DNA of 64,000 bases from Prevotellaceae bacterium UBA2738 (lineage in GTDB: Bacteria > Bacteroidota > Bacteroidia > Bacteroidales > Bacteroidaceae), in the NCBI GenBank assembly GCA_002353585.1, contig DEJW01000005.1:8155-72154 (forward strand). The letters are read 5' to 3'. The notes beneath the pieces were generated by a model. It was not told the origin of the DNA, ran no database searches, and saw nothing but the letters and a program-made list of their open reading frames with translations. Shown here one piece after another: positions 24,516 to 37,736 of this stretch (position 1 is its first letter; the number at the start of each line of letters is the position of its first letter). The translations under genes and the position numbers were made by a program.

Positions 24516-24770
24516 ATGGCTGAAAGAGACACTATCAAATACCAAATAAAAGATGGTAACGAGATTGTTTATTACGGCATAACTAACGACCTGGAACGTC
24601 GCGAGCAGGAACATCGTAGTGAGGGTATGGACTTCACTTCTATCGAAAAGATAGGAAATGTTACAACTCGTGACGCAGCTGGCGATTGGGAAGAAGAACG
24701 CATTAAGCATTACATGAGCCAGCATAGTGGTCGTAGGCCAAGATACAATCAAAACGATACTGGTAAGTAA
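24516..24770 (+). CDS. small stand-alone GIY-YIG nuclease-superfamily protein
   Basis: 84 aa. IKYQIKDGNEIVYYGITNDLERREQEH fits the Y..I...G..hYhG.T.DL..R...H GIY-YIG pattern. An intrinsic terminator lies downstream. Confidence 0.55.
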   Translation: MAERDTIKYQIKDGNEIVYYGITNDLERREQEHRSEGMDFTSIEKIGNVTTRDAAGDWEEERIKHYMSQHSGRRPRYNQNDTGK

Positions 24771-24827
24771 AGATTTTAATGTTCTTTGCTCACATCGTGT
24801 AGCAGCACGATAAAGAGCCTTATCAAA

Positions 24828-24863
24828 CGACTGTCGGCATGCACCACGGCAGTCGCTATTTTT
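24828..24863 (+). terminator. intrinsic terminator after the GIY-YIG ORF
   Basis: CGACTGTCG-10 nt loop-CGGCAGTCG (one G-U pair) followed by CTATTTTTAT. Confidence 0.55.
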
Positions 24864-25108
24864 ATAAATGTTGTTTGATTTATTTTATTGTATATAATTG
24901 TGCCACACATCTGACTAAAGAAGCTACAACTGCATTACGCAAGGTTAATATAATTGTAATCTCAATTATTGCGTGACGCTCTTATATAGGGGGAACGCCA
25001 CGGATTTCAGGGTTTTAACGTATATTGTCACCATCTTTTAATTTGTTTTCAATTATTTCGATTCGTATCATGAACTATTTGCACGAACTTTAATGTCCAA
25101 ACCATAAG

Positions 25109-25468
25109 TTATTCAGATATAACCCACTTTCTCAAGATGTCTTTGCCTTCATGCTTCAAAATACCTTTCTTCTCCAAAGCAGAAAGGTCACGTTCGATGG
25201 TGCGCTGGCTCACCGACAAAGTCTCCGACACGTCTCCGTCATAGTCTCCGACATTTTGTGTGTCGGAGGAGGCGAAGATAACGGTCTGGAATTGGGTCGG
25301 AGTAGATTTGAACTTGGGCTTTAGCTCGTCCTTATAACCTTCCAAGGCTTTGGTCTCATTACAGATGCGTGTGAGTCCACTGCCTCGTTTCTCCATGTAG
25401 TCAAGTTGAGCCATTACGTTTGCAAGTATGGGATTGCGCCTTTCAGAAGACACATCTTTGATGTCCAA
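25109..25468 (-). pseudogene. C-terminal remnant of an AlbA_2/HATPase_c_4-type putative transcriptional regulator ('ATP-binding protein')
   Basis: Only 119 aa remain. RNPILANVMAQLDYMEKRGSGLTRI and a terminal HTH (LSVSQRTIERDLSALEKKGIL) match the C-terminal quarter of roughly 450-500-aa Schlafen/AlbA_2 family proteins. The space where the N-terminus should be is occupied by the PfkB gene. Confidence 0.5.
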
Positions 25469-25491
25469 ATCCTGTGTCCTTTATTGTTTCA

Positions 25492-26385
25492 TTACTGCAT
25501 CATGCCTCGCGCCCCTTCATAAGAGCAACTCTCAGCACCTACTTTCTGTGCTTCATTTAGAGCTGTTTCCAAATCTGATTCTAAGAGATTGCATATTCCG
25601 AACATTACTTTGTTTTTGAACAAATTATTAATCAAGGCAGCCGCTGTCCAGTCACCCGCACCAGCTGTATCCACCACTTTTTCATTTGCAATAGGTTCCA
25701 AGTGCTTCCAATCGCCACTCAAGCGGTAGCTCAAGCCCTTTGCTCCTTGCGTCTGGATAAACAGCTTATCCTTATAGTCTTTAAACTGGTTAATCTCTTT
25801 TATCCTCTGTTCCGAGAACTTGACTATATCAGACACCTCAACACATTTGTAGAACAGGCTGACATTACCTCCTCTGCTAGAAGGCTCAAAGAATATCACC
25901 GAACCCTTTTCCTTGAATGTAGTGGCTAGCTTCAAGATCGCGGGTGAAACCCTGTCAAAGAAGAATACCTTTGGCACAAAGTCTATCCTCTCAATCACCC
26001 CATTTGCCTGTTTCAGCGTCAGCGACTTGAAGTCCAGATAGAACCGTCCGATATTGTTGCGCGATTCAAACTTATGCGTGGGAATACCGTCCTTGTTAAT
26101 GAAGTTACGCTGCACGATCACCGGTGTCTTACCGTCTTGGGTAGAGACAAAATCAGTGTGTACGCGGTGCTTTTTCATGTCATCCAGCACTCTCACCCCG
26201 TCTTTCGTCCCATCCAAACGGGCTATGGGATAAGCATCCCAACCCATGTGGGAGAGAATCATCATCACATTACCGCATGTGCCACCCACGTAATAGGATA
26301 TAGGGACTCTTTGCCCGTCCCATATCAAAACATCCAGGCAAATCAGACCTGCTCCAACTACTATATTATTTGTTTCAAGTTTCAT
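25492..26385 (-). CDS. PfkB (ribokinase-like) family sugar/nucleoside kinase
   Basis: 297 aa. It has the N-terminal GG-dipeptide region (YYVGGTCGNV) and the C-terminal anion-hole motif VVDTAGAGDWTAAAL (DTxGAGD). Confidence 0.8.
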   Translation of the reverse strand: MKLETNNIVVGAGLICLDVLIWDGQRVPISYYVGGTCGNVMMILSHMGWDAYPIARLDGTKDGVRVLDDMKKHRVHTDFVSTQDGKTPVIVQRNFINKDGIPTHKFESRNNIGRFYLDFKSLTLKQANGVIERIDFVPKVFFFDRVSPAILKLATTFKEKGSVIFFEPSSRGGNVSLFYKCVEVSDIVKFSEQRIKEINQFKDYKDKLFIQTQGAKGLSYRLSGDWKHLEPIANEKVVDTAGAGDWTAAALINNLFKNKVMFGICNLLESDLETALNEAQKVGAESCSYEGARGMMQ

Positions 26386-26421
26386 GATTCAAGTTTCAAA
26401 ATTCAAGTTTCAAGATTCAAA
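26374..26421. repeat. three tandem 14-bp repeats (TTCAAGTTTCA core) spanning the abiEii stop / PfkB start junction
   Basis: Cores lie at 26374, 26388 and 26402. The first copy contains the PfkB start codon and codons 2-4 (MKLE). The abiEii stop is at 26417..26419. Confidence 0.8.
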
Positions 26422-27220
26422 CTACAGGATTAAGCCTCTCCACCAATTCCGCTTTCACCTTTTCCCACGCCACCTGAGGGTCATACTCCACCTGTGGCCC
26501 AAGAATCATTTCCGTGTCCGTCAAGAATTCCTCATCCTGTAGTTTCCCGTCCATATTCAACAAAAACTCTTTGTATGTTGGCAAGTGAGACGCTGTAAAG
26601 CCCAGATACCGCTCATAGCTCTCCATCACTTTCACTTTATTCAACTCAGGGCGCATTGACAGAATCTTCCACAGGTCAAACAAATCACGTCCTTTTCTCC
26701 GCTGATACACAGCCCTCAGTTTCGTCCCTGTCAACTCTGCTAACTCATAGGTCAGCACCTCGCATGTACCTTTGAACCACGTACTATTCACTTCAAAAGG
26801 CTCTCTTACCATTGGATATACCGAGAAATGCTCCTTGCAGTTAATCTCCACCTTCAAGTGAATCTCCCCCGCATCCATATCCGTCGGTTGCACCTTGAAC
26901 ACCAGCGTATTGTTGTGCTTCTTCTGCTTCACCACCGGCTCACCCAGCCAAGCCAAAGCATCCCGCAGATGGTCAATCGTCTCTTTGATGGGTTCCGCCT
27001 GCACTTGTACAAGGTCGATGTCTTCCGAGTATCTGGGCTGCGGCTTCAGATACAGCTTACCTAATGCCGTGCCGCCTCTGAATGCCAGATGCTCCGCAAG
27101 AAATGCATCGCTATAGATAGACACTAACGCACGGCAGACTATCAAATCCTGTTCGATGAATTTATTCACCACCCACGGGGCCTGCTCGCTCCATTCCGTA
27201 ATATATCGCTCTGGTATCAT
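26417..27220 (-). CDS. abiEii: AbiEii/AbiGii-family nucleotidyltransferase toxin (type IV TA / abortive infection)
   Basis: 267 aa. The N-terminus reads MIPERYITEWSEQAPW...LAFRGGTALGKLYL...RYSEDIDL (GG..L and the DxD of the NTase fold). 4-nt overlap with abiEi. Confidence 0.88.
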   Translation of the reverse strand: MIPERYITEWSEQAPWVVNKFIEQDLIVCRALVSIYSDAFLAEHLAFRGGTALGKLYLKPQPRYSEDIDLVQVQAEPIKETIDHLRDALAWLGEPVVKQKKHNNTLVFKVQPTDMDAGEIHLKVEINCKEHFSVYPMVREPFEVNSTWFKGTCEVLTYELAELTGTKLRAVYQRRKGRDLFDLWKILSMRPELNKVKVMESYERYLGFTASHLPTYKEFLLNMDGKLQDEEFLTDTEMILGPQVEYDPQVAWEKVKAELVERLNPVV

Positions 27221-28023
27221 AACTCGTCAATCTCTATGGTTTCGTTCACAATAATTCTCCACTTGGCGTTTCTTTCGCCCCCCTCGCTACTCTTTCCAGC
27301 CTTTAAAGGCACATACTGGAGTGCGAAACCGGAACACTTCAACAGACTGTACACCGACTCTGCCGCTTCTCCTTCCTCCAGCACCTCGTCCAGAATGTAG
27401 CCCAGACGTTGCAGACTGGTTACAGGCACTTCCTTCACGAAGTCAGCCCCTAAACGCCCGAAATCCAGTTTCTCAGCCAGTTCAGCCAGAACAGTGGCTG
27501 CCCGCGAAACGCTCCCTGTCTTTGCCTGATACGTAAGCAAATCCACTGCCGTCAGTTCAGGACACGACACGTTAATGTAGCCCGTCCGCGTCTGCCGTCT
27601 CTCCACATATGTCTCAGGAATATGACTTTTGCAGAAATAATGCGTAAGGTACTTCTCTCCCTTCTTGTCGCGCATGGCGGGAGGCTCTATCATCACGCTG
27701 AACCGCAGCGGAACCTGATGCGAAGCTCCGTGATAACTTGCCGCACTCAACAGAGCCACATAGTATTTGCGTCCCAGATGGTGCATCATGTCGTCTAAGT
27801 AAAACGACTGCGGCACAGCCCCGCGCAGCACATACTCATCTGGCACAATGACGTAGAAGCCGCGCATGGGCGACATAATCCGTCTCTTGCTCACCTCCCT
27901 GGTCAGAGCACGCGCAATGCTACCAGCGCTCATTTCAGAAAATACCTGCGCCACCTCATTGTGTGTGAAGGTGTAATTGCCTCTAAGCGGCTTATCATAT
28001 ATCCAGTTTGCAATGCTTGCCAT
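27217..28023 (-). CDS. abiEi: AbiEi-family antitoxin / transcriptional regulator
   Basis: 268 aa with an N-terminal wHTH-like region. Size and position immediately upstream of, and overlapping, abiEii fit the family. The sequence pattern (RGFYVIVP...YYVALLSAASYHGASHQ) is typical of Bacteroidales AbiEi. Confidence 0.82.
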   Translation of the reverse strand: MASIANWIYDKPLRGNYTFTHNEVAQVFSEMSAGSIARALTREVSKRRIMSPMRGFYVIVPDEYVLRGAVPQSFYLDDMMHHLGRKYYVALLSAASYHGASHQVPLRFSVMIEPPAMRDKKGEKYLTHYFCKSHIPETYVERRQTRTGYINVSCPELTAVDLLTYQAKTGSVSRAATVLAELAEKLDFGRLGADFVKEVPVTSLQRLGYILDEVLEEGEAAESVYSLLKCSGFALQYVPLKAGKSSEGGERNAKWRIIVNETIEIDEL

Positions 28024-28048
28024 TATCTCGCATTCATTATTTTGTTTG

Positions 28049-28056
28049 CAAAGATA
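28049..28056 (-). promoter_or_regulatory. -7 promoter box (TATCTTTG on the minus strand) for abiEi-abiEii(-PfkB)
   Basis: TAnnTTTG match 25 nt upstream of the abiEi ATG (28023), in the 113-nt gap after the four-gene operon. Confidence 0.45.
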
Positions 28057-28136
28057 GACATTTTTTGTCTAACTACGCAAATCAATAACGATAATCTGAT
28101 CTTTTTATTGTAGCTTATTTATATTTTTGACCTGAA

Positions 28137-29276
28137 TCAATTTTCATTATAAGCCTCACCTGTTATCCAGAGGAGAAATGGTTCACTTTCCTTATTCAAC
28201 TCTTCAAACTCAAAGGCATCATCTATCTCGTAACTGGTTGAGCTTACATTGTATATAGCCACACTATCATTGTGCTCAATACCAACCAACAATGCACCCA
28301 TCGATAGTAGTTTACTTGTCAGCAACGCGATGCCAAAACACACATGATCACTTATAGGTTTAAGCGTATCATTATGTCCCTTCATCAAGTTCAATATTTT
28401 TCTATACAGCTCAAAGGGATTTTGTTCGTCCGCATATGTAAAGTTTTGTGCAGATGTCAAATGATGATCAGAGAAGAATTCGTGATACTCCTGCATAAGG
28501 TTATCAGAACGACGAGGATTCTTTGAAGGGAAGGGTAAAACTGGAAACATATCAGATGGCTGAAAGTGATTATAAATCCTGTTCAAAATAGCCAAATTGT
28601 GCTCACCCATCAAAGGAATTAATATATTGACTCTGTCAAGTACAGACTCCCTATTAGACATGGCTTTAAAGCCTACTAATGGTTCAATACTTTCGTTACT
28701 GATATTTTTCTTTATTTTTTCATCAATCTTCCAATTCTCAGAGACAGCGAAGAACATGTTCTTTGTCTTGTCATCCTTCAGCTTTCGGTAAAGGGATTTA
28801 GCAATATTGAAATAAAATGACCTGGGCAAAGAACTGGCGTCTAGAATGATGTCATTATAACCACTAAAGTCCATATTAAGAATTTCCAGGCTCATTTTAG
28901 ATATGCGCTTATCCCATATCAACTTGGAATCAACTGGTATATCCCTTACGACAAAACCATATTGAACCTGCAATTCTTTTAGATGCTGAACATTTAACTT
29001 GTATAACTTCTTTTTCTCTTTATGGTCGTCATCGCCATCTGGAAAGTCAAAAGTTATGCAGTCAATACGCAATCCTTGAACAGAACTTAGTAACAACTCC
29101 AACACATTATTCATACGTGGATCAAAGCCCTTTCCCAGAAAGAAGAGAACCTTTGAGTCGTGTTTATCCTTATAGAACTCCACCCAAAATTTCTTTAACT
29201 CTTTGGGCTTATGATACATCACATAAGACTCCCACTTATTGTGCATATCTTTACTCATTTTTACTTGCTTATCCAT
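28137..29276 (-). CDS. hypothetical protein, gene 4 (D) of the candidate operon; weak Rossmannoid/CARF-like features only
   Basis: 379 aa with a 16-nt overlap with the upstream ATPase gene. No catalytic motif recognised. VLFFLGKGFDPR and IILDASSLPRSFYF resemble strand-loop elements of Rossmann-like ligand-binding domains. Confidence 0.7.
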   Translation of the reverse strand: MDKQVKMSKDMHNKWESYVMYHKPKELKKFWVEFYKDKHDSKVLFFLGKGFDPRMNNVLELLLSSVQGLRIDCITFDFPDGDDDHKEKKKLYKLNVQHLKELQVQYGFVVRDIPVDSKLIWDKRISKMSLEILNMDFSGYNDIILDASSLPRSFYFNIAKSLYRKLKDDKTKNMFFAVSENWKIDEKIKKNISNESIEPLVGFKAMSNRESVLDRVNILIPLMGEHNLAILNRIYNHFQPSDMFPVLPFPSKNPRRSDNLMQEYHEFFSDHHLTSAQNFTYADEQNPFELYRKILNLMKGHNDTLKPISDHVCFGIALLTSKLLSMGALLVGIEHNDSVAIYNVSSTSYEIDDAFEFEELNKESEPFLLWITGEAYNEN

Positions 29277-31090
29277 TGTTTAAGTTGGCTCAAAGGCAAT
29301 TTACGCCAACCGCCTCTTCGCAAAGGGATATTCGCATGGGCACACAACCAGTAATTAAGATAAAATACCGTCCAGTTTTGCCCTTTTTCGCCTTGTGTAT
29401 GTGGATCTTTCTCCAAAAGATTAAAAGCCATACAGTCTCTCAGTAAAAGTGCCACCTCGCTATTCTTCTCATCCTGAAACCAGAAACCATCATAACCATA
29501 TCTTCCGGAATTCTCTTCCTTGACGGCAAAACCACTTACAGTTCGGTACGAATAACTATCGGAATAGGTTTGTTCCTTACAGAAAGATATTACTTGATTC
29601 AAAAATGCATATATTTTGTTTCCTCTAGGCAAACGTTTGATTTCTTCAAAGCGTTTCTTACAAAAGGACTTAATAATACTATCCTGCGTTTCAGGTTCCA
29701 AAGCATAATTTGCAGAATCCATAATTTTCTTTGCTAATAGAACCTCAAACATTCTGGAGGACAAATGAAGGAAAAGTTCAATATTTCCTGCTGATAGGTT
29801 TATTAATGTCTGTGAGCCGTAATACTGAGGTAGTCTCTTTATTTCACCAGGCAACAAATCAGCTGCAAGAGGAGATAATTCCATTAGGATTCCCTGTATT
29901 TCTTCTTCACTATACTCAAAAAGTCTAGCTGACTGACGTGAGGCATATATTAACAAAGCGCGACTATGGAGTGCTTTCTCATACGGTTCTTCTTTCTGTA
30001 TAGCCTTAATACCTTCAGCATAATTATCATAAACAGGCAGTGCTTTTAATTGAGTTAGATACTCCACACTCTTTTCGTTGTATTCATCCGTATAATTGAC
30101 GGTTGAGATTTCCGAAAGGTACGTAAACAGGTCAATGCCGTCTTCTGATTGTTTAGAGCGAATAGATGCCGTAGTAGTGGCCATTCTATTGAAGAGACTT
30201 TGAGACAAAGTATCCAACTTTATCACTTGAAAATCACGATCCATTATATTATTGTCGCTCAGGATCTCAACAGAACTGAGTGATTCCATACGTTCTGCAA
30301 GCCACAAGGTTGCCTTTTGGCGCATTCCTGCTACCTCATCACGAATAATCTTCTGCTGGTTATCTGACAACTTATGTCCATCATCAAATTGAAAGATGAA
30401 CTCTTCGCATAACGGCTTGTTATCAAATCGGAACCAAGTAGCTTTCATAGCGCTTAACGCAAATAATCTTATGTTTCCTTTGAATCCACCTTCCGGCGGC
30501 AGGAAGCTATCAAGGAACTCGCATACGCGACCTTCTTTGTCTGCAGCCCAGTCTAATAATTCCTTACCAGTATAAAATGCTTTGATGGCTCCCAACTCTG
30601 GAATTGGTTCCTCAGGTGTAAAAACCAATCTGTCTAAATCAGTGTATTTAACACCAGCCAGTGTCATACATGTTTTCAGGGTTGCGAGCACAATTCTTGC
30701 ATTAAGCAATGACAGAAATATACTTGTTTGCTCAGCTTCGCTGAACTGCTCGTCTTCCAATAATTTGTACTCACGTCCCATCTGTAGATAGACACCACAC
30801 TTTTGTATCTGCTCTCCATTACGCACTTCCAACTTCTTCAATTTTTTGAAGATAACCGGATAGTTAGTCTTAGTTACCTTTTGTAGAACTGATGGTGAGA
30901 ATAGCCGTAATAGTGTGGTCTTACCTGCACCCGGGGTACTCATTATATAGGTAAGTGTACCCCATAGCGTGTCATTCTTATAGTTATCCTCCAAATAGGA
31001 CAAGGGTTCTACAGAAAACAAGTCCAGGAACCTTTCATCAGTCTCTATTCGTTCAGAGACCCGTATGGAAAATGGATTCTTATAACTCAT
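29261..31090 (-). CDS. P-loop NTPase, gene 3 (C) of the candidate operon
   Basis: 609 aa. Walker A is MSTPGAGKTTLLRLF and the Walker B-like motif is EEFIFQFDDGHKL. A long helical C-terminal region of unknown function follows. Confidence 0.8.
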   Translation of the reverse strand: MSYKNPFSIRVSERIETDERFLDLFSVEPLSYLEDNYKNDTLWGTLTYIMSTPGAGKTTLLRLFSPSVLQKVTKTNYPVIFKKLKKLEVRNGEQIQKCGVYLQMGREYKLLEDEQFSEAEQTSIFLSLLNARIVLATLKTCMTLAGVKYTDLDRLVFTPEEPIPELGAIKAFYTGKELLDWAADKEGRVCEFLDSFLPPEGGFKGNIRLFALSAMKATWFRFDNKPLCEEFIFQFDDGHKLSDNQQKIIRDEVAGMRQKATLWLAERMESLSSVEILSDNNIMDRDFQVIKLDTLSQSLFNRMATTTASIRSKQSEDGIDLFTYLSEISTVNYTDEYNEKSVEYLTQLKALPVYDNYAEGIKAIQKEEPYEKALHSRALLIYASRQSARLFEYSEEEIQGILMELSPLAADLLPGEIKRLPQYYGSQTLINLSAGNIELFLHLSSRMFEVLLAKKIMDSANYALEPETQDSIIKSFCKKRFEEIKRLPRGNKIYAFLNQVISFCKEQTYSDSYSYRTVSGFAVKEENSGRYGYDGFWFQDEKNSEVALLLRDCMAFNLLEKDPHTQGEKGQNWTVFYLNYWLCAHANIPLRRGGWRKLPLSQLKQWISK

Positions 31091-31095
31091 ACGGA

Positions 31096-32253
31096 TTAGT
31101 GACGGCTAATGCGTGGAAATAAGCCACGGAATTGATTGGAATCCTGCCAAAGTATAGGCAGTGAGTTGTTTGGTGTATTGTGAGATAGCACTAAAGGAAG
31201 AGCGCATTCGTCAAATCCGAGGTATGGATGAGTAGTATTGCCCACCTTATATGCATCACTCTCGGTAACTTCATCGGTGAGATATTGTGGTTTCTTGAGA
31301 ACTGCCATCAAATCAACATCTGTAATAATGGAATTGCTCAATTCATTTTCAAGTTCTTGAACGATGTGTATCTCGAAAGTCACTTTTTTCTTAAACTGTC
31401 GCGACTTCAAATAGCTTTTTAGTCCATTTTCTATATTGGCTTTAGCTTTTTGAGTGGCCATACAGAAAAAAATGTCTATATGAATAACGTTATGATTAGG
31501 ATCAAGTACAAAACTCAAATGCTTCTTATCTTCTATGCCTGTTTTCTTTTTTCCCTCTGTTGCTATCTTATTCTCAGCACAAAGCTGATCAATTATCTTA
31601 GTAAGCTTGCCCTTGTATTTCTTTTCTTTTTTGTCATAGCGCACAAAACTCTTACCGCTAGCAGTAAAGTCGTCAATCAAAAAAATGCTCTGATAATACT
31701 TTGTGTTGTCACCCATTTTTTTCATATCATTCTGTAACTTCTTGAGTAGGTCGTCTATTTTCTCAGCATCAGGATAATAATTGGTTAACACCTGCTCGTT
31801 GCTAAAACCGGCATCACGACGAAGTATATCAATATGGGCACCATCACTAAGTCCAATAACTAGAGAGGAACGTTTCTCTATCCTGAAACGATTAACCACC
31901 TCCTTATTGGCTAAACAATAGGAAGCCTTACCTGTAGCCTTCGTTGCTTTGCTTAATAACAATGGTCGTATATTAGTATCATACAGCAAATCAACCAGAT
32001 AATTCATCTGAGTGGAAGAGATAAATACCAACCTGCTCTTTATGAATTTAAAAGCCACATCGCGGTCCTCTTGATCTAAACGATTCAACCACTGCACCAA
32101 ACTACTCATAAATCGCATACCAGGCATAAAGCGGTCATAACCATCGTATTTCATGCTTCCCATGAATTCAAGGGCCGCCCTCTCATTTGCCAATTGCTGT
32201 GGTTCCCACCCCATAATACTGGCAAGTAGTCTATGTGCCAAATTACTGTTCAT
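31096..32253 (-). CDS. phosphoribosyltransferase (PRTase)-fold protein, gene 2 (B) of the candidate operon
   Basis: 385 aa. The PRPP-binding-loop-like motif SIFLIDDFTASGKSF (four hydrophobic residues, an acidic pair, then a T/S-G-rich loop) lies behind a roughly 190-aa N-terminal region of unknown function. 4-nt overlap with gene A. Confidence 0.7.
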   Translation of the reverse strand: MNSNLAHRLLASIMGWEPQQLANERAALEFMGSMKYDGYDRFMPGMRFMSSLVQWLNRLDQEDRDVAFKFIKSRLVFISSTQMNYLVDLLYDTNIRPLLLSKATKATGKASYCLANKEVVNRFRIEKRSSLVIGLSDGAHIDILRRDAGFSNEQVLTNYYPDAEKIDDLLKKLQNDMKKMGDNTKYYQSIFLIDDFTASGKSFVRYDKKEKKYKGKLTKIIDQLCAENKIATEGKKKTGIEDKKHLSFVLDPNHNVIHIDIFFCMATQKAKANIENGLKSYLKSRQFKKKVTFEIHIVQELENELSNSIITDVDLMAVLKKPQYLTDEVTESDAYKVGNTTHPYLGFDECALPLVLSHNTPNNSLPILWQDSNQFRGLFPRISRH

Positions 32254-34151
32254 ACACTAAACTTACATTTAATCACACCATCCTTTGCAAAGAGCCGGCT
32301 CAGATAATAGAGCGTTGCATCAAGCCCATATATACCTGATGGGGCTATATTCCAGCAACTCTCTGCATTTTTCGATACGCGGTCAACGCTCAATGAATAC
32401 TTACTAGTCAGCATTTCGTAGTCGTTACCTTCCACTGTGCCATAATCACCTATGCACAAGGTGTGCCAGAAGTCTTCTATTACCCGTAGTTTGCTCACTT
32501 CACGGTAAACCACAATATCCATACTGTGACTACTACGCCACATACGGATACCATTCAACTGCTTGTCCCAAATGATTTCGCAGCAGGTGGAGTAAAGTAC
32601 CTCTGCATCAGATGAAGACTGCACTTCTTCTATAGAGAGCTGCTGGCTGCGGGGTGAAAGTTTATACTTGATAAAGTCCTTAGGTAAACGTCTCTGTAAT
32701 TCTTCACTCAGTTCTTTCAATTCGCTATCAAAGGGCTGTTTCTTCCATCTTTTCAGTTCATCTTCATCACCCAAAGCCAACAGGCAAGCGCCATTATAAT
32801 AACCCACCTTTATCTGTGGCCAATACATTTGGTCTAAGGAGTTCTTAAACGAATCCCCTACTGACTTGCCACGACCTGTTGCAACGACTATCTGAACTCT
32901 ATTTTCCAACAACGGCAAAAGAGCATTCTTTATCTCATCACACAATCTGTTTGTGAAACGGCTCTTATGGTTTGCAGCAGACAGTGTACCGTCATAGTCA
33001 AAGGCCACAGTAGTAAACTTGCCCTTATTCAGCTGCTTTACAAACCGCTGACAAGCCTCACTGTAATACTCCCATAATGGGGCATTTTCTATTCCTGAAG
33101 ATCCCAGTTTGCGACGTACCGCCACATCTAGTGTCTTTTCTGCGGGCAGTATGCGGTTGGTCAACTTGAAGTAGTCCAAATTATATAGTGTACGACCATA
33201 GGAAGGTACACCTGGACGACCTGGATCTATTCCACGAGCCACACCCAAATCATTCACAAAGCGGAACGCCTTTAGCAGCATGTCGATAGATGCAGCAGGC
33301 GTTTCCAACTCCGTTTCTATGAATACCACCGGTACATCCTTGGGCAAACAGCCAATGGTCTTATATGCCAGTTCCTGCTCAACGGGAGTTATCAGCGCAA
33401 TAATGCAAGAGTTATCTCCCTTCTTTGAAAACCAATGATGACGACCATGACCAAAGTTACGATAGTCGCTGAGCAAAGCAGAGCCTAAAGCAGCTTCTGT
33501 GAGTTTAGACTCAATATCCCACGCTACAGGTTCACCGGTTGCGCCATACAACACCAGAAAGTTTTGAATGCAGGTCAAGTCAAATTCATAATTCTTGGTA
33601 TATGTACCAAAAACCTGATAATTGAAACCTGAAACATCACTTAAACACTCAGCCGCCTTACATAGAAGTGCAAAAGTGGCTGCTAAAGAGTTGGTGGCCA
33701 GAAAGCCATCTTTCTCGCTGGGGATGTCTTCACACCAGCGCAGCACTTTGGGGTATTGGTCCAATAGTTCCTCGGTAGGATTGTTCTTGCGGAGGGTCAG
33801 GCTCATCATGCCTATCTCGTTATACTTTACGCCATACTTGATGGCATTCAGTATATCCTTGTTCTTACCACTGGCACTAAGGAAAAGTAGTTTGCTGCTA
33901 CGGATAATATTATGCCCTGCATACATCAACTGAAGCGGTGTCATAGCCTGTGCCAGCACACCATTGCACTGCTGATAGAGCTGGGCTGCATAATGGCAAG
34001 CACTAAGCGAACCGCCAGAGCCAATACACACCAAAGGTATCTGCTTGTTCTCTGCAAACAAAAACTGGGCAAGACGCATCACATCTTGCTGCTCAGCCCA
34101 TCGAATAGTTTCCGAAAGCTTTTTCAGTTCTTCCTTAAATGGCTTTCCCAT
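32250..34151 (-). CDS. double-SIS (GlmS/AgaS/FrlB-like phosphosugar-binding) domain fused to a HAD-IIB (Cof-type) phosphatase, gene 1 (A) of the candidate operon
   Basis: 633 aa. SIS-1 is LVCIGSGGSLSACHYAA...LLFLSASGKNKDILNA...FLATNSLAATFALL. SIS-2 is LVLYGATGEPVAWDIESKLTEA...FGHGRHHW. The HAD motifs are FDYDGTL (I), VVATGRG (II) and CIGDYGTVEGNDYEML (IV). Confidence 0.8.
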   Translation of the reverse strand: MGKPFKEELKKLSETIRWAEQQDVMRLAQFLFAENKQIPLVCIGSGGSLSACHYAAQLYQQCNGVLAQAMTPLQLMYAGHNIIRSSKLLFLSASGKNKDILNAIKYGVKYNEIGMMSLTLRKNNPTEELLDQYPKVLRWCEDIPSEKDGFLATNSLAATFALLCKAAECLSDVSGFNYQVFGTYTKNYEFDLTCIQNFLVLYGATGEPVAWDIESKLTEAALGSALLSDYRNFGHGRHHWFSKKGDNSCIIALITPVEQELAYKTIGCLPKDVPVVFIETELETPAASIDMLLKAFRFVNDLGVARGIDPGRPGVPSYGRTLYNLDYFKLTNRILPAEKTLDVAVRRKLGSSGIENAPLWEYYSEACQRFVKQLNKGKFTTVAFDYDGTLSAANHKSRFTNRLCDEIKNALLPLLENRVQIVVATGRGKSVGDSFKNSLDQMYWPQIKVGYYNGACLLALGDEDELKRWKKQPFDSELKELSEELQRRLPKDFIKYKLSPRSQQLSIEEVQSSSDAEVLYSTCCEIIWDKQLNGIRMWRSSHSMDIVVYREVSKLRVIEDFWHTLCIGDYGTVEGNDYEMLTSKYSLSVDRVSKNAESCWNIAPSGIYGLDATLYYLSRLFAKDGVIKCKFSV

Positions 34152-34197
34152 AATTAAACTTTGAGTCCACTTAAAAAAGTGGCATTAATTTGATTTA

Positions 34198-34205
34198 CAA
34201 AGGTA
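34198..34205 (-). promoter_or_regulatory. -7 promoter box (TACCTTTG on the minus strand) for the four-gene operon
   Basis: Perfect TAnnTTTG match 46 nt upstream of the ATG at 34151. Confidence 0.5.
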
Positions 34206-34320
34206 CTACTTTTTCTCGAAACGGAAGCATAAAATCATTGTTTCGCGCGTATTTTAAGCAAATTTTATCTGAAATCATACTTATGTGGCACAAAAAGTTG
34301 CCATAATTGAAGTTTTTTCG

Positions 34321-34328
34321 TACCTTTG
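34321..34328 (+). promoter_or_regulatory. -7 promoter box (TACCTTTG), divergent, about 265 nt upstream of the protease gene
   Basis: Perfect TAnnTTTG match on the + strand. The next + strand ORF starts only at 34593. Confidence 0.4.
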
Positions 34329-34592
34329 CAACGCATAGTGGCGACATACCATCTTTGCACGACATATTGAAATAATGAAGCGTTATGCTCGACTTGCAAA
34401 AGGAAACGTGAGAAACTTCCAAGAAAGAACTGCAAGAACGGTGTACGGTTCGCGCTATATAGCGTGGGCTGGTTACTCCTTCTCAGTTCAGGTAATTCTC
34501 ACGACCTCCTTTTGAAGAAGTGGTATATCAGTGCCACGCTTCTTCACGAACAAAAAGTCCTTAAGGCTACTGAGGGATATTGACTTGAAAGT

Positions 34593-36473
34593 ATGAAGAG
34601 TAGATTTTTGGTTATGGTTTCGATGCTACTGAGTATAACAAGTTATGCTCAAGTAACGACAATGTTCTATGGCCGTAATAAGATTCAATCAAAGAATGAA
34701 ACAGCAGCTTTGTATTCTGTAGAAATATATGAGAATAATACAAGAGTAACTGTTGAGTTAATACCAACAAAAAATCGTTCCCGCATGAATTATTGGACAA
34801 GCAGGAACACATACATAATAGTTGATGATAATATTGAGCTTCCCATACTTGGTTTCTTGGGAGAAAGGAGTGGGGAGCCAGTTGTTGATACAGATCCGTT
34901 TTCTGGGAATTGGGGATGGAGCAATGTGAAAAAAGATACAAAGTACTATTACACAATGGTCTTTGCTGGTAAAATTCCTCCAGGAATGACTAATTTTACA
35001 TTGAAGGATAAAGGTGCATATAATGGGGCGCATGGTTATGGATTCAGCAATTACGAACTTAATAATCCAAGAACAGGTACCACATCTTGGACTGAAGCAT
35101 CCGTAAAACAATTCGCAGATGCCAATAATGATGGCATCTGCGGAATCTATGAAGGCTCTGGAACGAATGGATATAAACTCGGATGTATAAAGGAGGGAAT
35201 TGAATACAGATTATTGTATCTCGGTGGAAAAGAACGATTGTCATGGTGGCAAATAGGTGATACAAAGGCTGTGTTACGGAATAGTGCAACTACAGGCTTC
35301 TTTAAGGGAGACTGGTATATGCAAGATAAGACACCAAATTCTGATTGTTATGTGGTTTTTGATGGAGGAAGTATGAAAACCATCATAGATAATGAAGAAG
35401 AATTTTATTTGAAGATGTATCCGACATCAAATTCAAATGGAACAAATACGGTTGCAGAGAAATGGACCGGTACAGGATTTGCATTAAATGGCGAATATAT
35501 AGTAACAAACTACCATGTTGTGGAAAATGCCACATCTATCAAAGTTCAAGGAGTGAGAGGAGATTTTAATAAAGTATATAATGCCAATGTCGTGTCAACT
35601 GACAAAACAAATGATTTAGCGATTATAAAAATCTCCGACCAGAACTTTAATGGGTTCGGCAATATACCATACAAAGTGAAAACCTCTTTATCAGAAGTAG
35701 GTGAAGATGTCTTTGTCTTGGGATATCCTCTTACTTCTACAATGGGAGATGAAATCAAACTGACTACAGGCGTAATCAGTTCTAAAACTGGATTTCAAGG
35801 TGACATTTCTCTTTATCAAATTTCAGCTCCTATACAACCAGGGAACAGCGGTGGGCCAGTCTTTGATGGGAAGGGCAATCTTATCGGGATTGTAAATGCT
35901 AAGCATAGAGGTGCCGAAAATGTAAGCTATGCCATAAAGTCTTCATATTTAGGCAATTTAATAGAAAGTGCCACATACGTTTCAGTTTTGCCCTCTAACA
36001 ACACCATTTCAACAATGTCATTGAGTAACAAAGTAAAGAATATTAGGGACTTTGTATTCATGATTACTTGTTCAAATGGACAACAAGCGACAGCAATGTC
36101 AAGTCAAAATGACATAGTTATCTCTTATCCATCAGTATCAAGCAATACTCTCAATGATTCACAACACTACACCTCTACACTTATATCAAAAGTTACTGTA
36201 GGAAACTACGCCACAATAATAGAACTAACCTTAAAGAATTATGTGTGGTGTTCCATAAATCCAGGAACATACATTTATGCTAATGGACAAAAATATACAT
36301 TACAACGTTCAGAGGGCATTGCAACCGAACCACAAAAAACTTATCCTTCTTATCGCGGTGCTGATATAGTATGTAGGTTGTATTTTCCTCCGATACCAAA
36401 ATCAACCAACTCTTTTGATTTGATAGAAAGTCAGAGTAGTAGATGGAAATTTTATGGGGTGAAACTGAGATAA
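34593..36473 (+). CDS. secreted trypsin-like (S1/S1C-type) serine protease with unknown N- and C-terminal domains
   Basis: 626 aa with a signal peptide (SMLLSITSYAQ). The catalytic triad context is IVTNYHVV (His), NDLAIIKI (Asp) and QPGNSGGPVFD (Ser). Confidence 0.8.
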   Translation: MKSRFLVMVSMLLSITSYAQVTTMFYGRNKIQSKNETAALYSVEIYENNTRVTVELIPTKNRSRMNYWTSRNTYIIVDDNIELPILGFLGERSGEPVVDTDPFSGNWGWSNVKKDTKYYYTMVFAGKIPPGMTNFTLKDKGAYNGAHGYGFSNYELNNPRTGTTSWTEASVKQFADANNDGICGIYEGSGTNGYKLGCIKEGIEYRLLYLGGKERLSWWQIGDTKAVLRNSATTGFFKGDWYMQDKTPNSDCYVVFDGGSMKTIIDNEEEFYLKMYPTSNSNGTNTVAEKWTGTGFALNGEYIVTNYHVVENATSIKVQGVRGDFNKVYNANVVSTDKTNDLAIIKISDQNFNGFGNIPYKVKTSLSEVGEDVFVLGYPLTSTMGDEIKLTTGVISSKTGFQGDISLYQISAPIQPGNSGGPVFDGKGNLIGIVNAKHRGAENVSYAIKSSYLGNLIESATYVSVLPSNNTISTMSLSNKVKNIRDFVFMITCSNGQQATAMSSQNDIVISYPSVSSNTLNDSQHYTSTLISKVTVGNYATIIELTLKNYVWCSINPGTYIYANGQKYTLQRSEGIATEPQKTYPSYRGADIVCRLYFPPIPKSTNSFDLIESQSSRWKFYGVKLR

Positions 36474-36476
36474 AAG

Positions 36477-36506
36477 ATAAGGGCGATATTTCGCCCTTAT
36501 TCTTTT
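36477..36506 (+). terminator. intrinsic terminator after the protease gene
   Basis: ATAAGGGCGA-TATT-TCGCCCTTAT (10-bp stem) followed by TCTTTT. Confidence 0.65.
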
Positions 36507-37228
36507 AATTGCCACATTTTCCCGTCCCATTCAAATTGGAAACCGTTCACTTCCAAATACGGAAGCCTATCAAATTCGATACTATTAACAAAATTCCACA
36601 TAAAGTAGATAAATAAAAAGTTCTGCCACTATCGACATTGTTGCAAAATTACTCAATTTTCAGTATTCCTACAATAGCATAAGTAAAACCATTAATATCA
36701 CTAAGTTATTTACTTATTCTTACAAAGAATGAAACAGACCCTTTTTCGCTAACACAAAGAAATAAAGCGAAAGTACACATAGAAAGCTATCTCAATTGCA
36801 ATCGTTATGATTGACAGTAGGGAAAGAGAGCAGACAACGTAGAATAGTTCCGTGGAAATCTAGACACCTTCTGTGCTCCTAAAGATTTACGGAAACCTAT
36901 GGGCTATGCCTTTGCGATAACACTTTCTCTCTAATATACAGAGTTGTTTGTGTTCGCAGAATTAGAAATAGCATCTACGACAGGCTTGCCTTGAAGTGGA
37001 AGCCTCCAATCAAACGATGTGGAGATGGGGTATTAGGCTACCCACTGCTTGAAAAATGTGGCATCGGCAAGCCGATTTTACACGCTTGATATTATTCTCT
37101 GGCATCGGCTCCGATATTCATGGCCTGCCATATGTGAGAATAGCTTAATGCCAGATTCCGTGACCTCTGCTTGCAGATTTATGTGGTCAGTCCAACGTTC
37201 GATGCTAATAGAAACGGGTAGTGAGCTT

Positions 37229-37260
37229 CCCGATGCTTGTTTTATGTGGCAAGCATCGGG
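37229..37260. other. 11-bp-stem hairpin in the ORF-free region
   Basis: CCCGATGCTTG-10 nt-CAAGCATCGGG. Related TGTGGCATCGG / TGTGGCAAGCATCGG direct-repeat words occur at about 37054, 37101 and 37240. Confidence 0.6.
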
Positions 37261-37736
37261 CATGCCCTCTACTTCATAGCTACATTGCCTTCATCCATTC
37301 CTTATTTCATGGATAGACGTTTTTTCCTTGTTAAGTTAATTTTTTTTCTCCAAACAAAGGGGAGAAAAAATACGGAAAAGAAAGATTTTTGAATTTCAAC
37401 CTCACTTACTCACTTGGGGGCTCTCAAGGCGCATGAATACTGGGATGAGGATAGTGACCTGTGTTTGGCTACACCTCACTTAGAGGTCACTTTATACCTC
37501 TGAAGTGCCTGCCACTTTTTCACTTTGTCATGAAAACGGCGATTTTACTGACAAAGTGAATTTTTCTGAAGGCGCGAGAGTGAAGAATTTGGAGGCGAGT
37601 GGGAAGTTTGGTTTCAAATTCGGAAATCTCGTGAATTTTGTAAAAGATTGGTGGTCAGAGGGTTGAAAAATGGGGTGATTTTTGTGCTGTGATATTGGTG
37701 TGGTAATCTGCGAATAAGGGTTGGATTTTTGGTTGC

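What the first reader, a model, noticed from the sequence alone, without database searches (positions are those of the whole stretch)
28137..34151. Candidate undescribed four-gene conflict/defence operon: double-SIS+HAD fusion, PRTase-fold protein, P-loop NTPase, orphan protein
Seen in the sequence: four co-directional minus-strand genes are packed for translational coupling. Gene A is 34151->32250. Gene B is 32253->31096 (4-nt overlap). Gene C is 31090->29261 (5-nt gap). Gene D is 29276->28137 (16-nt overlap). A perfect TAnnTTTG box sits 46 nt upstream of A, and the AbiE pair downstream has its own separate box. Motifs: A has two SIS modules plus HAD-IIB motifs (FDYDGTL, ATGRG, GDYGTVEGND). 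B has a PRPP-loop-like IFLIDDFTASGKS. C has Walker A STPGAGKTT and Walker B-like FIFQFDDG. D has nothing recognisable. Context: the operon lies immediately beside an AbiEi/AbiEii abortive-infection module, inside an island littered with gene remnants. That is the usual neighbourhood of defence genes. Inference: I cannot map this gene set onto any named system I know (RM, BREX, DISARM, Dnd/Ssp, Dpd, CBASS, Pycsar, Thoeris, Gabija, Septu, Lamassu, Zorya, Druantia, Wadjet, Hachiman, Kiwa, Qat, Mza, Detocs, Kongming, retrons and others). The enzymology (phosphosugar isomerase/binding, sugar-phosphate phosphatase, phosphoribosyl transfer, with a PfkB kinase two genes away) suggests three options: synthesis or destruction of a phosphoribosyl/phosphosugar-derived small molecule, depletion of a nucleotide precursor, or a sugar-type nucleic-acid modification. 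The NTPase and the orphan protein would then act as sensor and/or effector. PRTase plus HAD modules predicted to make nucleoside-like metabolites are known from Ter-associated conflict systems, which gives a loose precedent.
Basis: partly seen in the sequence, partly recalled or inferred. Interest (0 to 1): 0.88.

Follow-up and report, generated by a model that had tools for sequence, protein, structure and literature searches.

The report
Five-gene mobile candidate defence operon
The four genes are real, but they belong to a widespread, mobile five-gene unit that looks like an untested bacterial immune system. It pairs a sugar-phosphate enzyme and a sugar kinase with a fast-evolving trio of phosphoribosyltransferase, ATPase and ligand-sensor-like protein, and several of its parts are already catalogued in conflict-system libraries.

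Summary
Three corrections apply.

1. Gene D is not an orphan. It matches the PADLOC 'CARF6' model over its full length (E 9e-108).
2. B and C belong to the paired Pfam families PRTase-CE and ORC-CDC6-like.
3. The unit has five genes, not four. The PfkB kinase 'two genes away' accompanies A-D in 89 of 90 loci that are long enough to show it. The AbiEi/AbiEii pair is a secondary insertion between D and PfkB.

The operon occurs across phyla: Bacteroidota, Alpha-, Beta- and Gammaproteobacteria, Desulfuromonadaceae and Actinomycetota. It sits on conjugative transposons, plasmids, Tn7-like and Mu-like elements, and beside RM, AbiE, GmrSD and SIR2 genes.

Gene-order permutations and recombination statistics define two modules. 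B-C-D is always contiguous, with pairwise identities correlated at r=0.99. A+PfkB sometimes carries NADAR and an HTH regulator.

A is structurally a NagB-II/GlmS-type double-SIS isomerase fused to a HAD-IIB phosphatase.

Best reading: an uncharacterised abortive-infection-type defence system with a PRTase effector and a phosphosugar or phosphoribosyl ligand circuit. The mechanism is inferred, not shown. It is not unmappable, but it has not been tested experimentally and PADLOC does not define it as a system.

The parts
34198..34205 (-). Bacteroidota-type -7 promoter box TAccTTTG of the operon, 46 nt upstream of the start codon of A
   Evidence: Read directly from the sequence. It lies inside the DNA block shared with dozens of loci, whose right edge is at 34273/34274.
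32250..34151 (-). Gene A: double-SIS phosphosugar isomerase/deaminase-like module (about aa 1-330) fused to a HAD-IIB phosphatase (about aa 380-633)
   Evidence: AF2 model with pLDDT 87.2. Foldseek matches NagB-II, GlmS isomerase and AgaS structures at E 7.5e-14, TMt 0.72-0.76. The SIS profile hits 3g68 and 2aml, with the E-x-K..E and F-x-H-G motifs aligned. The HAD profile hits 4qjb. The HAD motifs DYDGT, TGRG.S, K554 and GD.G...GND are invariant or nearly invariant in 41 sequences across phyla.
31096..32253 (-). Gene B: PRTase-CE family phosphoribosyltransferase-fold protein, the predicted effector
   Evidence: Pfam PF24390 at 2.5e-19, 70.6 bits against a cutoff of 27. PADLOC PRTase_III-A at 1.9e-17. 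The motifs GLSDG.H.DI.RR, DDFTASG.SF.R and HNTPNN are invariant in 12 divergent homologues.
29261..31090 (-). Gene C: ORC-CDC6-like P-loop/AAA+ ATPase, the predicted sensor or switch
   Evidence: Pfam PF24389 at 5.6e-29 over aa 39-596. Walker A PG.GKT and the Walker B-like IFQ.DD.HKL are invariant.
28137..29276 (-). Gene D: stand-alone protein of three Rossmann-like alpha/beta units, 'CARF6' clade, the predicted ligand sensor
   Evidence: PADLOC PDLC01910 at 9.4e-108. Distant orthologues hit PDLC01916/01910 at 1e-63 to 1e-118. AF2 pLDDT 86.6, pTM 0.88. Foldseek gives only low-TM Rossmannoid hits, including the Csx1-Crn2 CARF-HTH. The family has 704 clusters at 50% identity; the best 150 listed are mostly 355-400 aa and none is long enough to carry a fused domain.
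26417..28023 (-). AbiEi (27217-28023) and AbiEii (26417-27220): an independent type IV TA/abortive-infection pair nested between D and PfkB
   Evidence: Pfam and PADLOC hits. It has its own TAtcTTTG box. It is absent from many loci in which D abuts PfkB, and it is replaced by a PDC-S01 gene in L041.
25492..26385 (-). Gene E: PfkB/ribokinase-family kinase, the fifth constant member of the system
   Evidence: Pfam PfkB at 1e-17. The GG.CGNV, FFEPS and D..G.GDW motifs are invariant. It is present in 89 of 90 loci with at least 3.5 kb after D. It lies adjacent to A whenever A is separated from B-C-D.
25472..34274 (-). The conserved, horizontally shared DNA block: promoter, A-B-C-D, AbiE insert and PfkB
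   Evidence: blastn against the fetched loci gives recurrent common end points at 25472/25476 and 34273/34274.

Best explanation
The locus is one copy of a widespread, horizontally mobile five-gene conflict (most likely anti-phage or anti-MGE) system built from two modules.

Module 1 is B-C-D. B is a PRTase-CE phosphoribosyltransferase-fold protein, C is an ORC/Cdc6-like ATPase, and D is a CARF6-type three-Rossmannoid ligand-binding protein. I propose that these form a co-adapted protein complex. C acts as the NTP-driven sensor or switch, D as a small-molecule receptor, and B as the effector. Once activated, B attacks the nucleotide/PRPP pool through phosphoribosyl transfer or its reversal and arrests the infected cell.

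Module 2 is A+PfkB. A is a NagB-II/GlmS-like double-SIS isomerase fused to a HAD-IIB phosphatase, and PfkB is a ribokinase-family kinase. In Proteobacteria this module often also carries a NADAR N-glycosidase and an XRE-type HTH regulator. I propose that it is a small-molecule-processing module that makes, recycles or destroys the phosphosugar or phosphoribosyl-derived ligand or product that links to module 1.

Shown here: the gene set, its near-absolute co-occurrence, the two-module structure, the folds and intact catalytic motifs, and the mobile, defence-island context.

Inferred: defence function, the roles of sensor and effector, and the chemistry.

The AbiEi/AbiEii pair in this window is a separate system that inserted between D and PfkB.
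For: - Family assignments: B is PF24390, C is PF24389, and D matches the PADLOC CARF6 models. B also hits the retron III-A PRTase effector models.
- A is structurally a double-SIS plus HAD-IIB protein with conserved catalytic motifs. PfkB has an intact ribokinase anion-hole motif.
- Co-occurrence across 137 loci: 95 are A-B-C-D-PfkB, 4 are A-PfkB-B-C-D and 2 are B-C-D-A-PfkB. The rest are cut by contig ends. PfkB is found in 89 of 90 informative loci and A in 105 of 105.
- Taxonomic breadth: Bacteroidales, Chryseolinea, Neptuniibacter, Desulfuromonadaceae, Rhizobiales, Sphingomonas, Burkholderia and Paenarthrobacter.
- Two-module evidence: B-C-D is never split or reordered, and A stays next to PfkB when the order is permuted.
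- Recombination statistics over 2415 locus pairs: identity vectors correlate at r=0.99 among B, C and D, at 0.71-0.74 with A, and at 0.30 with PfkB. Of 874 pairs with PfkB at least 90% identical, 407 have B, C and D below 70%. No pair has one of B, C or D at 90% or more and another below 70%.
- Context: cargo on a conjugative transposon, a Tn7-like element with SIR2 and AbiEii nearby, MmeI RM, a helicase and T5orf172, an adjacent integrase, HsdM, AbiEii and an AAA_14/DUF4143 gene, GmrSD, Dcm/Vsr and an EcoRI methylase, and conjugative plasmids.
- The D|PfkB junction hosts AbiE or PDC-S01 defence genes.
- Precedent for PRTase effectors in validated defence systems: DprA-PRTase protects against T7 and lambda, and retron PRTases are probable effectors (PMC9122126).
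Against: - There is no experimental evidence of any phenotype.
- No PADLOC model exists for A or PfkB, and C gets only a non-significant hit (E 0.0055). No system-level definition was found.
- The CARF identity of D rests on a model name and on low-TM structural similarity (TM 0.25-0.32). Tandem-USP and KaiC folds score equally well, and Pfam finds nothing.
- No cyclase or other signal synthase of a known type lies in the operon or the window, so the ligand is unknown.
- B and C have no detectable relative among solved structures by sequence. The direction of the PRTase reaction and its substrate are therefore guesses.
- The lower divergence of A and PfkB could reflect enzymatic constraint alone rather than a diffusible link between modules.
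- I could not read the paper I believe named PRTase-CE (Nicastro et al., NAR 2023, recalled from memory).
Confidence: 0.6

Rival explanations
1. Second-messenger variant. A, PfkB and possibly B form a biosynthetic pathway for a novel phosphosugar or N-ribosyl signal, made through kinase, isomerase, phosphatase and PRTase steps. D senses that signal. The real effector is then the uncharacterised, highly conserved C-terminal half of C, or D itself, and not the PRTase.
For: - All four enzymes keep intact catalytic motifs across phyla.
- D is a stand-alone ligand-binding-type protein with many invariant polar loop residues.
- The C-terminal 300 aa of C carry many invariant residues of unknown function.
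- No other signal synthase is present.
Against: - B co-evolves with C and D and not with A and PfkB. B also stays with C-D when the gene order is permuted. This fits an effector within a protein complex better than a pathway enzyme.
- PRTase relatives are effectors in retrons and in the DprA-PRTase system.
Confidence: 0.15
2. Addiction or competition module of mobile elements rather than phage defence. B makes a toxic phosphoribosyl product or adduct. A, PfkB and NADAR act as the small-molecule 'antidote' that removes it, much as NADAR or macrodomains reverse DarT toxins. The effect would be to stabilise the element or to exclude rival elements.
For: - The unit is nearly always on plasmids, conjugative transposons or transposons.
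- A NADAR N-glycosidase is recruited in several proteobacterial versions.
- The pairing of a PfkB kinase with a double-SIS protein follows the same logic as the FrlD kinase/FrlB deglycase pair, which cleaves sugar-amine C-N bonds. This is an inference from established enzymology, supported by weak NCBIfam and JGI naming hints.
Against: - Five genes with an NTPase and a sensor-like protein are more elaborate than known TA modules.
- Some copies are chromosomal, between housekeeping genes, with no element nearby (and this window).
- A hypervariable B-C-D cassette suggests an arms race with a variable external target.
Confidence: 0.12
3. Ordinary catabolic or salvage operon for an aminosugar, Amadori compound or nucleoside. 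C and D would act as regulators, and the operon would be carried on mobile elements as a niche-adaptation trait.
For: - A, PfkB and B belong to enzyme superfamilies that are typical of sugar-phosphate and nucleotide metabolism.
- RefSeq and JGI annotate them as HAD hydrolase, carbohydrate kinase, or FrlB-like/phosphoheptose isomerase.
Against: - No transporter, glycosidase or classical transcription factor is conserved with the operon.
- B and C fall in conflict-system-specific families.
- The neighbours are defence and mobility genes.
- B-C-D diverges to 22-36% identity while the frame stays above 90% identical in recently transferred copies. This is atypical of housekeeping metabolism.
- The system is not fixed in any lineage examined.
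Confidence: 0.07
4. Sugar-type nucleic-acid modification system. It would install or remove a ribosyl or sugar group on DNA or RNA for self/non-self discrimination.
For: - ORC/Cdc6-like ATPases are typically DNA-binding (from general knowledge of the family).
- NADAR enzymes can remove ADP-ribose from guanine bases (general knowledge).
- The sugar-phosphate enzymology is compatible with such a role.
Against: - No nuclease, transglycosylase, glycosyltransferase or methyltransferase is conserved with the operon.
- PRTase-fold enzymes act on free bases and small nucleophiles.
- No restriction partner is present.
Confidence: 0.03

Closest known systems
Predicted PRTase-CE / ORC-CDC6-like conflict systems (Pfam PF24390 and PF24389). 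From memory, these were named in the survey of nucleotide-targeting effectors by Nicastro, Burroughs, Iyer & Aravind, NAR 2023; the paper is not held here, so I could not verify this.
   Same: B and C score well above the gathering thresholds of these two consecutively numbered families, here and in every distant orthologue tested. Their context is mobile elements and defence islands.
   Different: I could not check whether that work describes the full five-gene set (A, PfkB, the CARF6 protein, NADAR) or the two-module structure. No experimental characterisation is known to me. PADLOC v2 has no system definition.
Retron type III-A (RT + ncRNA + PRTase effector)
   Same: B hits all five PADLOC PRTase_III-A models, the best at 1.9e-17. 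Both have a PRTase-fold protein as the presumed effector, with an unknown mode of action (PMC9122126).
   Different: No reverse transcriptase and no msr/msd-type element is part of the conserved gene set. The partners are instead an ATPase, a CARF6 protein, a SIS-HAD protein and a kinase.
DprA-PRTase / ShosTA-type two-gene systems
   Same: A PRTase toxin or effector is held in check by a partner. The DprA-PRTase system gave experimentally shown protection against T7 and lambda (PMC9122126).
   Different: No DprA/SLOG partner is present. B gave no ShosT-type hit in PADLOC. This system has five genes with an NTPase.
CARF-based second-messenger immunity (type III CRISPR ancillary effectors; CBASS-like logic)
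   Same: D belongs to models labelled CARF6 and has a Rossmannoid fold with weak similarity to the Csx1-Crn2 CARF-HTH. A sensor of a small nucleotide-like ligand is plausible.
   Different: No Cas10, CD-NTase or mCpol cyclase lies in the operon or the window. D is never fused to an effector domain. The candidate ligand-making enzymes are sugar-phosphate enzymes, not cyclases.
FrlD/FrlB (fructoselysine 6-kinase plus double-SIS deglycase) and GlmS/NagB-II aminosugar-phosphate isomerases
   Same: A PfkB-family kinase is paired with a double-SIS enzyme. The SIS module of A superposes on NagB-II, GlmS and AgaS structures and keeps the E-x-K..E and F-x-H-G motif. Weak NCBIfam and JGI naming hints point to FrlD and FrlB.
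   Different: Sequence identity is only 12-21%. A carries an extra HAD-IIB phosphatase. The genomic context is defence and mobile elements rather than catabolism. The substrate is unknown.
Ter-associated PRTase + HAD nucleoside-like metabolite modules
   Same: A PRTase and a HAD phosphoesterase are combined in a conflict context.
   Different: No TerB, TerC, TerD, TelA or ATP-grasp genes appear in the window or in any conserved neighbourhood examined. B belongs to the PRTase-CE family rather than to a nucleobase PRTase family. It scores below the PF00156 cutoff in the one locus where that family appears at all.

Membership tests
Pfam PF24390 PRTase-CE | Score above the family gathering threshold | tested here: met
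   70.6 bits against a cutoff of 27, E 2.5e-19, profile positions 3-253 of 253. Orthologues in L121, L128 and L129 also pass.
Pfam PF24390 PRTase-CE | PRTase-type acidic dyad plus 5-phosphate-binding loop (the PRPP loop) | tested here: met
   D194-D195-F-T-A-S-G-x-S is invariant in 12 homologues at 37-65% identity.
Pfam PF24390 PRTase-CE | Nucleotide- or PRPP-directed catalytic activity | not testable with these tools
   There is no solved relative by sequence. A biochemical assay is needed.
Pfam PF24389 ORC-CDC6-like | Score above the gathering threshold over the whole protein, with intact Walker A and Walker B | tested here: met
   101.7 bits against a cutoff of 27, aa 39-596. G54, G56, K57, T58 and D236, D237 are invariant.
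CARF superfamily (clade 'CARF6' as labelled in PADLOC-DB) | Match to the clade's profile | tested here: met
   PDLC01910 at 9.4e-108 over the full length. Distant orthologues score 1e-63 to 1e-118.
CARF superfamily (clade 'CARF6' as labelled in PADLOC-DB) | CARF-type Rossmann-like fold | tested here: inconclusive
   The confident AF2 model shows three alpha/beta units. Foldseek hits to the Csx1-Crn2 CARF-HTH (E 2.4e-5) have TM of only 0.27-0.32, and tandem-USP, KCC-CTD and KaiC folds score as well or better. There is no Pfam CARF hit.
CARF superfamily (clade 'CARF6' as labelled in PADLOC-DB) | Genomic link to a cyclic-oligonucleotide synthase (Cas10, mCpol or CD-NTase) | tested here: not met
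   None is found in the operon, the window, or any of the conserved neighbourhoods.
CARF superfamily (clade 'CARF6' as labelled in PADLOC-DB) | Binding of a cyclic oligoadenylate or other nucleotide ligand | not testable with these tools
   Binding assays are needed.
Retron type III-A | Reverse transcriptase and msr/msd ncRNA adjacent to the PRTase | tested here: not met
   No RT domain occurs in any of the five proteins or in the conserved neighbours. Only the PRTase models are hit.
ShosTA / DprA-PRTase | DprA/SLOG-like partner next to the PRTase | tested here: not met
   No such domain occurs in the operon.
Double-SIS phosphosugar isomerase/deaminase (GlmS C-terminal, NagB-II, AgaS, FrlB type) | Two tandem SIS domains with this fold | tested here: met
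   Foldseek to 8fdb, 8eym and 3hba at E 7.5e-14 to 2e-13, TMt 0.74-0.76, rmsd about 4 A over about 330 columns. Profile hits to 3g68 (1.1e-5) and 2aml (1.6e-3).
Double-SIS phosphosugar isomerase/deaminase (GlmS C-terminal, NagB-II, AgaS, FrlB type) | Phosphate-binding Ser/Gly loops and the catalytic Glu/Lys/His motif | tested here: met
   GSGGS (44-48), SASG.N.D (92-99), E214-S-K216..E219 and F233-x-H235-G are invariant across phyla. They align to the E.K..E and F.HG positions of 3g68 and 2aml. Assigning catalytic roles to these residues is an inference.
HAD-IIB phosphatase | HAD motifs I-IV, including the DxD nucleophile, and a type IIB cap | tested here: met
   D385-Y-D387-G-T, T425-G-R-G-x-S, K554 and G568-D-x-G...G575-N-D577 are invariant or nearly invariant. 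TIGR01484 HAD-SF-IIB matches at 1e-5, below its trusted cutoff. The profile hits the 4qjb Cof-type HAD at 4.5e-5.
PfkB/ribokinase kinase | Pfam score above cutoff, with the GG lid motif and the DxxGxGD anion hole and catalytic Asp | tested here: met
   PF00294 at 64.9 bits against a cutoff of 25.8. G34-G35, D239, G242, G244 and D245 are invariant. The nearest solved relatives are generic sugar and nucleoside kinases. No NCBIfam equivalog cutoff is reached.
AbiE (type IV TA / abortive infection) | Adjacent AbiEi antitoxin and AbiEii nucleotidyltransferase toxin | tested here: met
   PF09407 at 6.7e-24 and PF08843 at 1.1e-32. PADLOC AbiEi at 2.8e-84 and AbiEii at 3.7e-106. This is a separate system nested in the operon, not part of it.

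The most novel reading that the evidence does not exclude
The system is a bacterial immune pathway whose messenger or checkpoint molecule is not a cyclase-made (oligo)nucleotide. It would instead be a phosphosugar or N-(phospho)ribosylamine (Amadori-type) metabolite. The PRTase would write it. The PfkB kinase, the double-SIS isomerase/deglycase, the HAD phosphatase and sometimes NADAR would edit or erase it. A CARF6-type receptor coupled to an ORC/Cdc6-like ATPase would read it. That would be a new chemical class of immune signalling or of small-molecule toxin-antidote control.
Probability: 0.18. Interest if true: 0.85.

Novelty: new member of a known kind. Interest (0 to 1): 0.6.

Why it matters
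This is a very common, horizontally spreading five-gene cassette. One A-protein cluster alone was seen on 891 contigs, including Phocaeicola vulgatus, P. dorei and Bacteroides heparinolyticus. It also occurs in soil and marine Proteobacteria and in Actinomycetota.

If it is a defence system, it would be a major untested immune module of the human and ruminant gut microbiota. It would also be a rare case in which sugar-phosphate enzymes (SIS isomerase, HAD phosphatase, ribokinase-like kinase) are integral to immunity.

The two-module architecture and the hypervariable B-C-D cassette give clear, testable predictions about which parts contact each other and which parts communicate through a small molecule. 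In practical terms, annotation pipelines currently call these genes 'HAD hydrolase', 'hypothetical protein' and 'carbohydrate kinase'.

Tried and rejected
**Literature**
Terms included PRTase-CE, CARF6, and PRTase with CARF, ORC, Cdc6, PfkB and SIS. None returned a held paper that describes the operon.
- The three most relevant papers are not held, so their content is cited only from memory: Makarova et al. 2020 CARF census (PMC7498327), Burroughs et al. 2015 NAR, and Nicastro et al. 2023 NAR (PMC10681802).

**Sequence searches against solved structures**
- B: nothing.
- C: only noise.
- D: only noise.

**Other searches that found nothing useful**
- Pfam on 28 D homologues at E up to 5.
- NCBIfam gave no equivalog for any of the five proteins.
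- Foldseek of D against viral structures returned only generic Rossmann folds.
- No match to C in 50,697 phage genomes, and no PHROG family for A-D. A phage origin is therefore rejected.
- No tRNA gene in the window and no convincing att-like repeats at the block ends, so the insertion mechanism here remains unknown.

**Readings considered and rejected**
- The upstream trypsin-like protease (34593-36473) is not part of the system. It has a signal peptide and is absent from all related loci.
- Retron, ShosTA, Ter-linked and type III CRISPR ancillary membership each fail a defining feature.
- sigma-70-type promoter and terminator scans were no better than shuffled controls.

Full report
**1. Observation.** The junctions are a 4-nt overlap, a 5-nt gap and a 16-nt overlap.
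- The quoted motifs are all in the translations.
- A perfect Bacteroidota -7 box, TAccTTTG, lies at 34205-34198, 46 nt before the start of A. A second box, TAtcTTTG, precedes AbiEi.
- The rest of the window is core chromosome: FtsK, Dfp, UvrA, LpxK, an NrnA-like DHH protein, RecJ, RecQ, RF3, HisRS, PurA and Ffh.
- The island between about 23.5 and 38.3 kb is therefore a small insertion. It also holds gene fragments.

**2. What the proteins are.**
- B is Pfam PF24390 'PRTase-CE' (2.5e-19) and C is PF24389 'ORC-CDC6-like' (5.6e-29).
- D was called an orphan, but it matches PADLOC 'CARF6--CARF_CARF_CARF' at 9.4e-108 over its whole length. B also hits the PRTase effector models of retron type III-A.
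- A has only marginal Pfam SIS and HAD hits. A confident AlphaFold model (pLDDT 87.2) superposes its first 330 residues or so on NagB-II, GlmS-isomerase and AgaS double-SIS enzymes (E 7.5e-14, TMt 0.72-0.76).
- A profile of the SIS half of A reaches 3g68 and 2aml, with the E-x-K..E and F-x-H-G motifs aligned. The C-terminal half has all the HAD motifs and matches Cof-type HAD-IIB phosphatases.
- D gives a good model (pLDDT 86.6, pTM 0.88) made of three alpha/beta units. Structural matches are weak (TM 0.2-0.3) and are spread over tandem-USP, KaiC and CARF folds, and Pfam finds nothing. I therefore treat 'CARF' as a label from the PADLOC library rather than as something proven here.
- B and C have invariant PRPP-loop and Walker motifs. 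PfkB keeps the ribokinase catalytic motif.

**3. The unit is five genes.** I fetched loci through relatives of D (35 genomes), of B (80 metagenome contigs and 2 'viral' contigs), of A and of C (plasmids).
- Profile searches of six-frame ORFs in all 137 loci give 95 A-B-C-D-PfkB, 4 A-PfkB-B-C-D and 2 B-C-D-A-PfkB. The remainder are truncated by contig ends.
- PfkB is present in 89 of 90 loci with at least 3.5 kb after D. A is present in 105 of 105 informative loci.
- The single exception, a Burkholderia gladioli plasmid, has a NADAR gene translationally coupled in front of A.
- D directly abuts or overlaps PfkB in many loci, including all the distant ones.
- In gut and rumen Bacteroidales, the D-PfkB junction usually contains the AbiEi/AbiEii pair (gap of about 1.73 kb). 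In some loci it contains a PADLOC PDC-S01 ATPase instead (gap of about 1.29 kb).
- The AbiE pair in this window is therefore a nested, independent system, and the kinase 'two genes away' is a genuine member.

**4. Distribution and context.** The A family has thousands of members (3989 and 3120 hits in two capped searches).
- Named sources include Phocaeicola vulgatus (one cluster on 891 contigs), P. dorei, Bacteroides heparinolyticus, Nitrospira, Gemmataceae, Desulfuromonadaceae, Rhodospirillales, Neptuniibacter and Chryseolinea.
- The D family has 704 clusters at 50% identity. The best 150 listed are mostly 355-400 aa and none is long enough to carry a fused domain.
- Contexts found:
  - cargo next to relaxase, MobC and T4CP genes in Bacteroides-type conjugative transposons;
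  - Tn7-like element cargo with SIR2 and AbiEii nearby;
  - beside an MmeI-type RM, a DEAD helicase and T5orf172;
  - next to an integrase;
  - beside HsdM, AbiEii and AAA_14-DUF4143 genes;
  - beside GmrSD, Dcm/Vsr and an EcoRI methylase;
  - between the relaxase/T4CP genes and the virB operon of a conjugative plasmid;
  - on a Mu-like element.
- There is no match in 50,697 phage genomes and no PHROG family.
- In this window, the DNA shared with other loci ends sharply at 25472/25476 and 34273/34274.

**5. Two modules.** Within Bacteroidales, B, C and D fall into discrete sequence types (about 95/93/91, 63/57/63, 62/65/59, 43/40/45 and 36/34/39 % identity to the window). A and PfkB vary independently of those types, and AbiE stays at 91-97%.
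- Over 2415 locus pairs, the identity vectors of B, C and D correlate at r=0.99. The correlation is 0.71-0.74 with A and 0.30 with PfkB.
- Of 874 pairs with PfkB at least 90% identical, 407 have B, C and D below 70%. No pair has one of B, C or D at 90% or more and another below 70%.
- The first 26 codons or so of A and its promoter are conserved even where the rest of A is only 45% identical. This places a recombination breakpoint there.
- Independently, gene order in Proteobacteria and Actinomycetota is permuted only between the modules. The orders seen are A-PfkB-(NADAR)-HTH-B-C-D, NADAR-A-PfkB-B-C-D and B-C-D-A-PfkB.
- I infer that B-C-D are physically co-adapted. I also infer that A+PfkB (with or without NADAR) interact with them through something generic, most simply a small molecule.

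**6. Mechanism (inferred).** The most economical model has three parts.
- C is the NTP-dependent sensor or switch. D is a receptor for a phosphoribosyl or phosphosugar ligand. B is the effector that acts on PRPP or nucleotides.
- PRTase-fold effectors are known in retrons and in the experimentally protective DprA-PRTase system (PMC9122126).
- A+PfkB resemble the kinase-plus-double-SIS logic of FrlD/FrlB and the aminosugar C-N chemistry of GlmS and NagB-II, with a phosphatase attached. Together with NADAR, an N-glycosidase family, this points to chemistry on N-ribosyl or ketosamine phosphate species.
- Whether this module makes a signal, drains the effector's product or detoxifies it cannot be decided here. 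These alternatives are listed as rivals, along with a purely metabolic reading and a nucleic-acid modification reading.

**7. Comparison and novelty.** The locus is not a retron (no RT), not ShosTA (no DprA partner), not Ter-linked (no Ter genes), and not a CRISPR ancillary module or CBASS (no cyclase).
- Its B and C components belong to Pfam families that were created for conflict systems, and D belongs to a catalogued CARF clade. The claim that it is 'undescribed' is therefore too strong.
- From memory, PRTase-CE was named in Nicastro et al. 2023 as a predicted nucleotide-targeting effector. I could not read that paper.
- I found no experimental work and no system-level model.
- I rate it a new member of a known, computationally predicted kind, with moderately high interest. 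The system is abundant, its enzymology is unusual for immunity, and the predictions that follow from its architecture are clean and testable.

Noticed in passing
window 26386-28136; L041 12118-13404: The junction between D and PfkB is a recurrent insertion site for other defence genes. It is empty in many loci, holds AbiEi/AbiEii (with its own TAtcTTTG box) in this window and most gut Bacteroidales, and holds a PADLOC PDC-S01 AAA_14/DUF4143-type ATPase in L041 and its relatives.
   Followed up: yes
window 34075-34274; L027 and L034 (5' end of gene A): The promoter region and the first 26 codons or so of A are nearly identical between cassette types whose A proteins are otherwise only about 45% identical. 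This indicates a recombination breakpoint inside the 5' end of A, through which whole cassettes are exchanged.
   Followed up: partly
window 34298-34331: About 150 nt upstream of A there is a degenerate repeat of A's start region (34298-34315 against 34145-34162). There is also an inverted copy of the promoter-box region (34320-34331 against 34195-34206). The inverted copy places a second TAccTTTG box on the plus strand, facing the protease gene.
   Followed up: no
L128, L131, L134, L135, L137 (proteobacterial plasmids): A NADAR-family N-glycosidase gene and an XRE-type HTH regulator frequently accompany the A+PfkB module. In the Burkholderia gladioli plasmid, NADAR is present and PfkB is absent.
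   Followed up: partly
window 34593-36473 (+): This 626-aa trypsin-like serine protease has an N-terminal signal peptide. Its PADLOC hits (RT-Protease_XI, LmuA, HamA, Avs1b) cover the protease domain only. It is absent from all related loci, so it is probably an exported protease and not a defence component.
   Followed up: partly
window 23608-25468: Gene remnants lie between nrnA and PfkB. They are a BspA-type LRR fragment (23608-24096), a small ORF (24516-24770), and the C-terminal fragment (25109-25468) of a helicase/AlbA_2-like protein. That protein is full length (453 aa) downstream of PfkB in L041.
   Followed up: partly
window 36474-38314: This stretch of about 1.8 kb has no ORF longer than 76 aa. 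It lies between the protease gene and the GH25 gene and has low GC (about 0.38). Its nature is unknown.
   Followed up: no
L006 (CALVCJ010000116.1): A contig binned as Candidatus Gastranaerophilales carries a Bacteroidales-type block with PfkB 94% identical to the window. This is either recent cross-phylum transfer or a binning error.
   Followed up: no
L121 (IMGVR_UViG_3300023199_000149): An IMG/VR 'viral' contig carries a distant full five-gene operon (A 32%, B 34%, C 22%, D 22% and PfkB 40% identity) next to a Mu-type transposase and a ParB gene. It is probably a transposable element or prophage cargo. No counterpart exists in the GenBank phage collection.
   Followed up: partly
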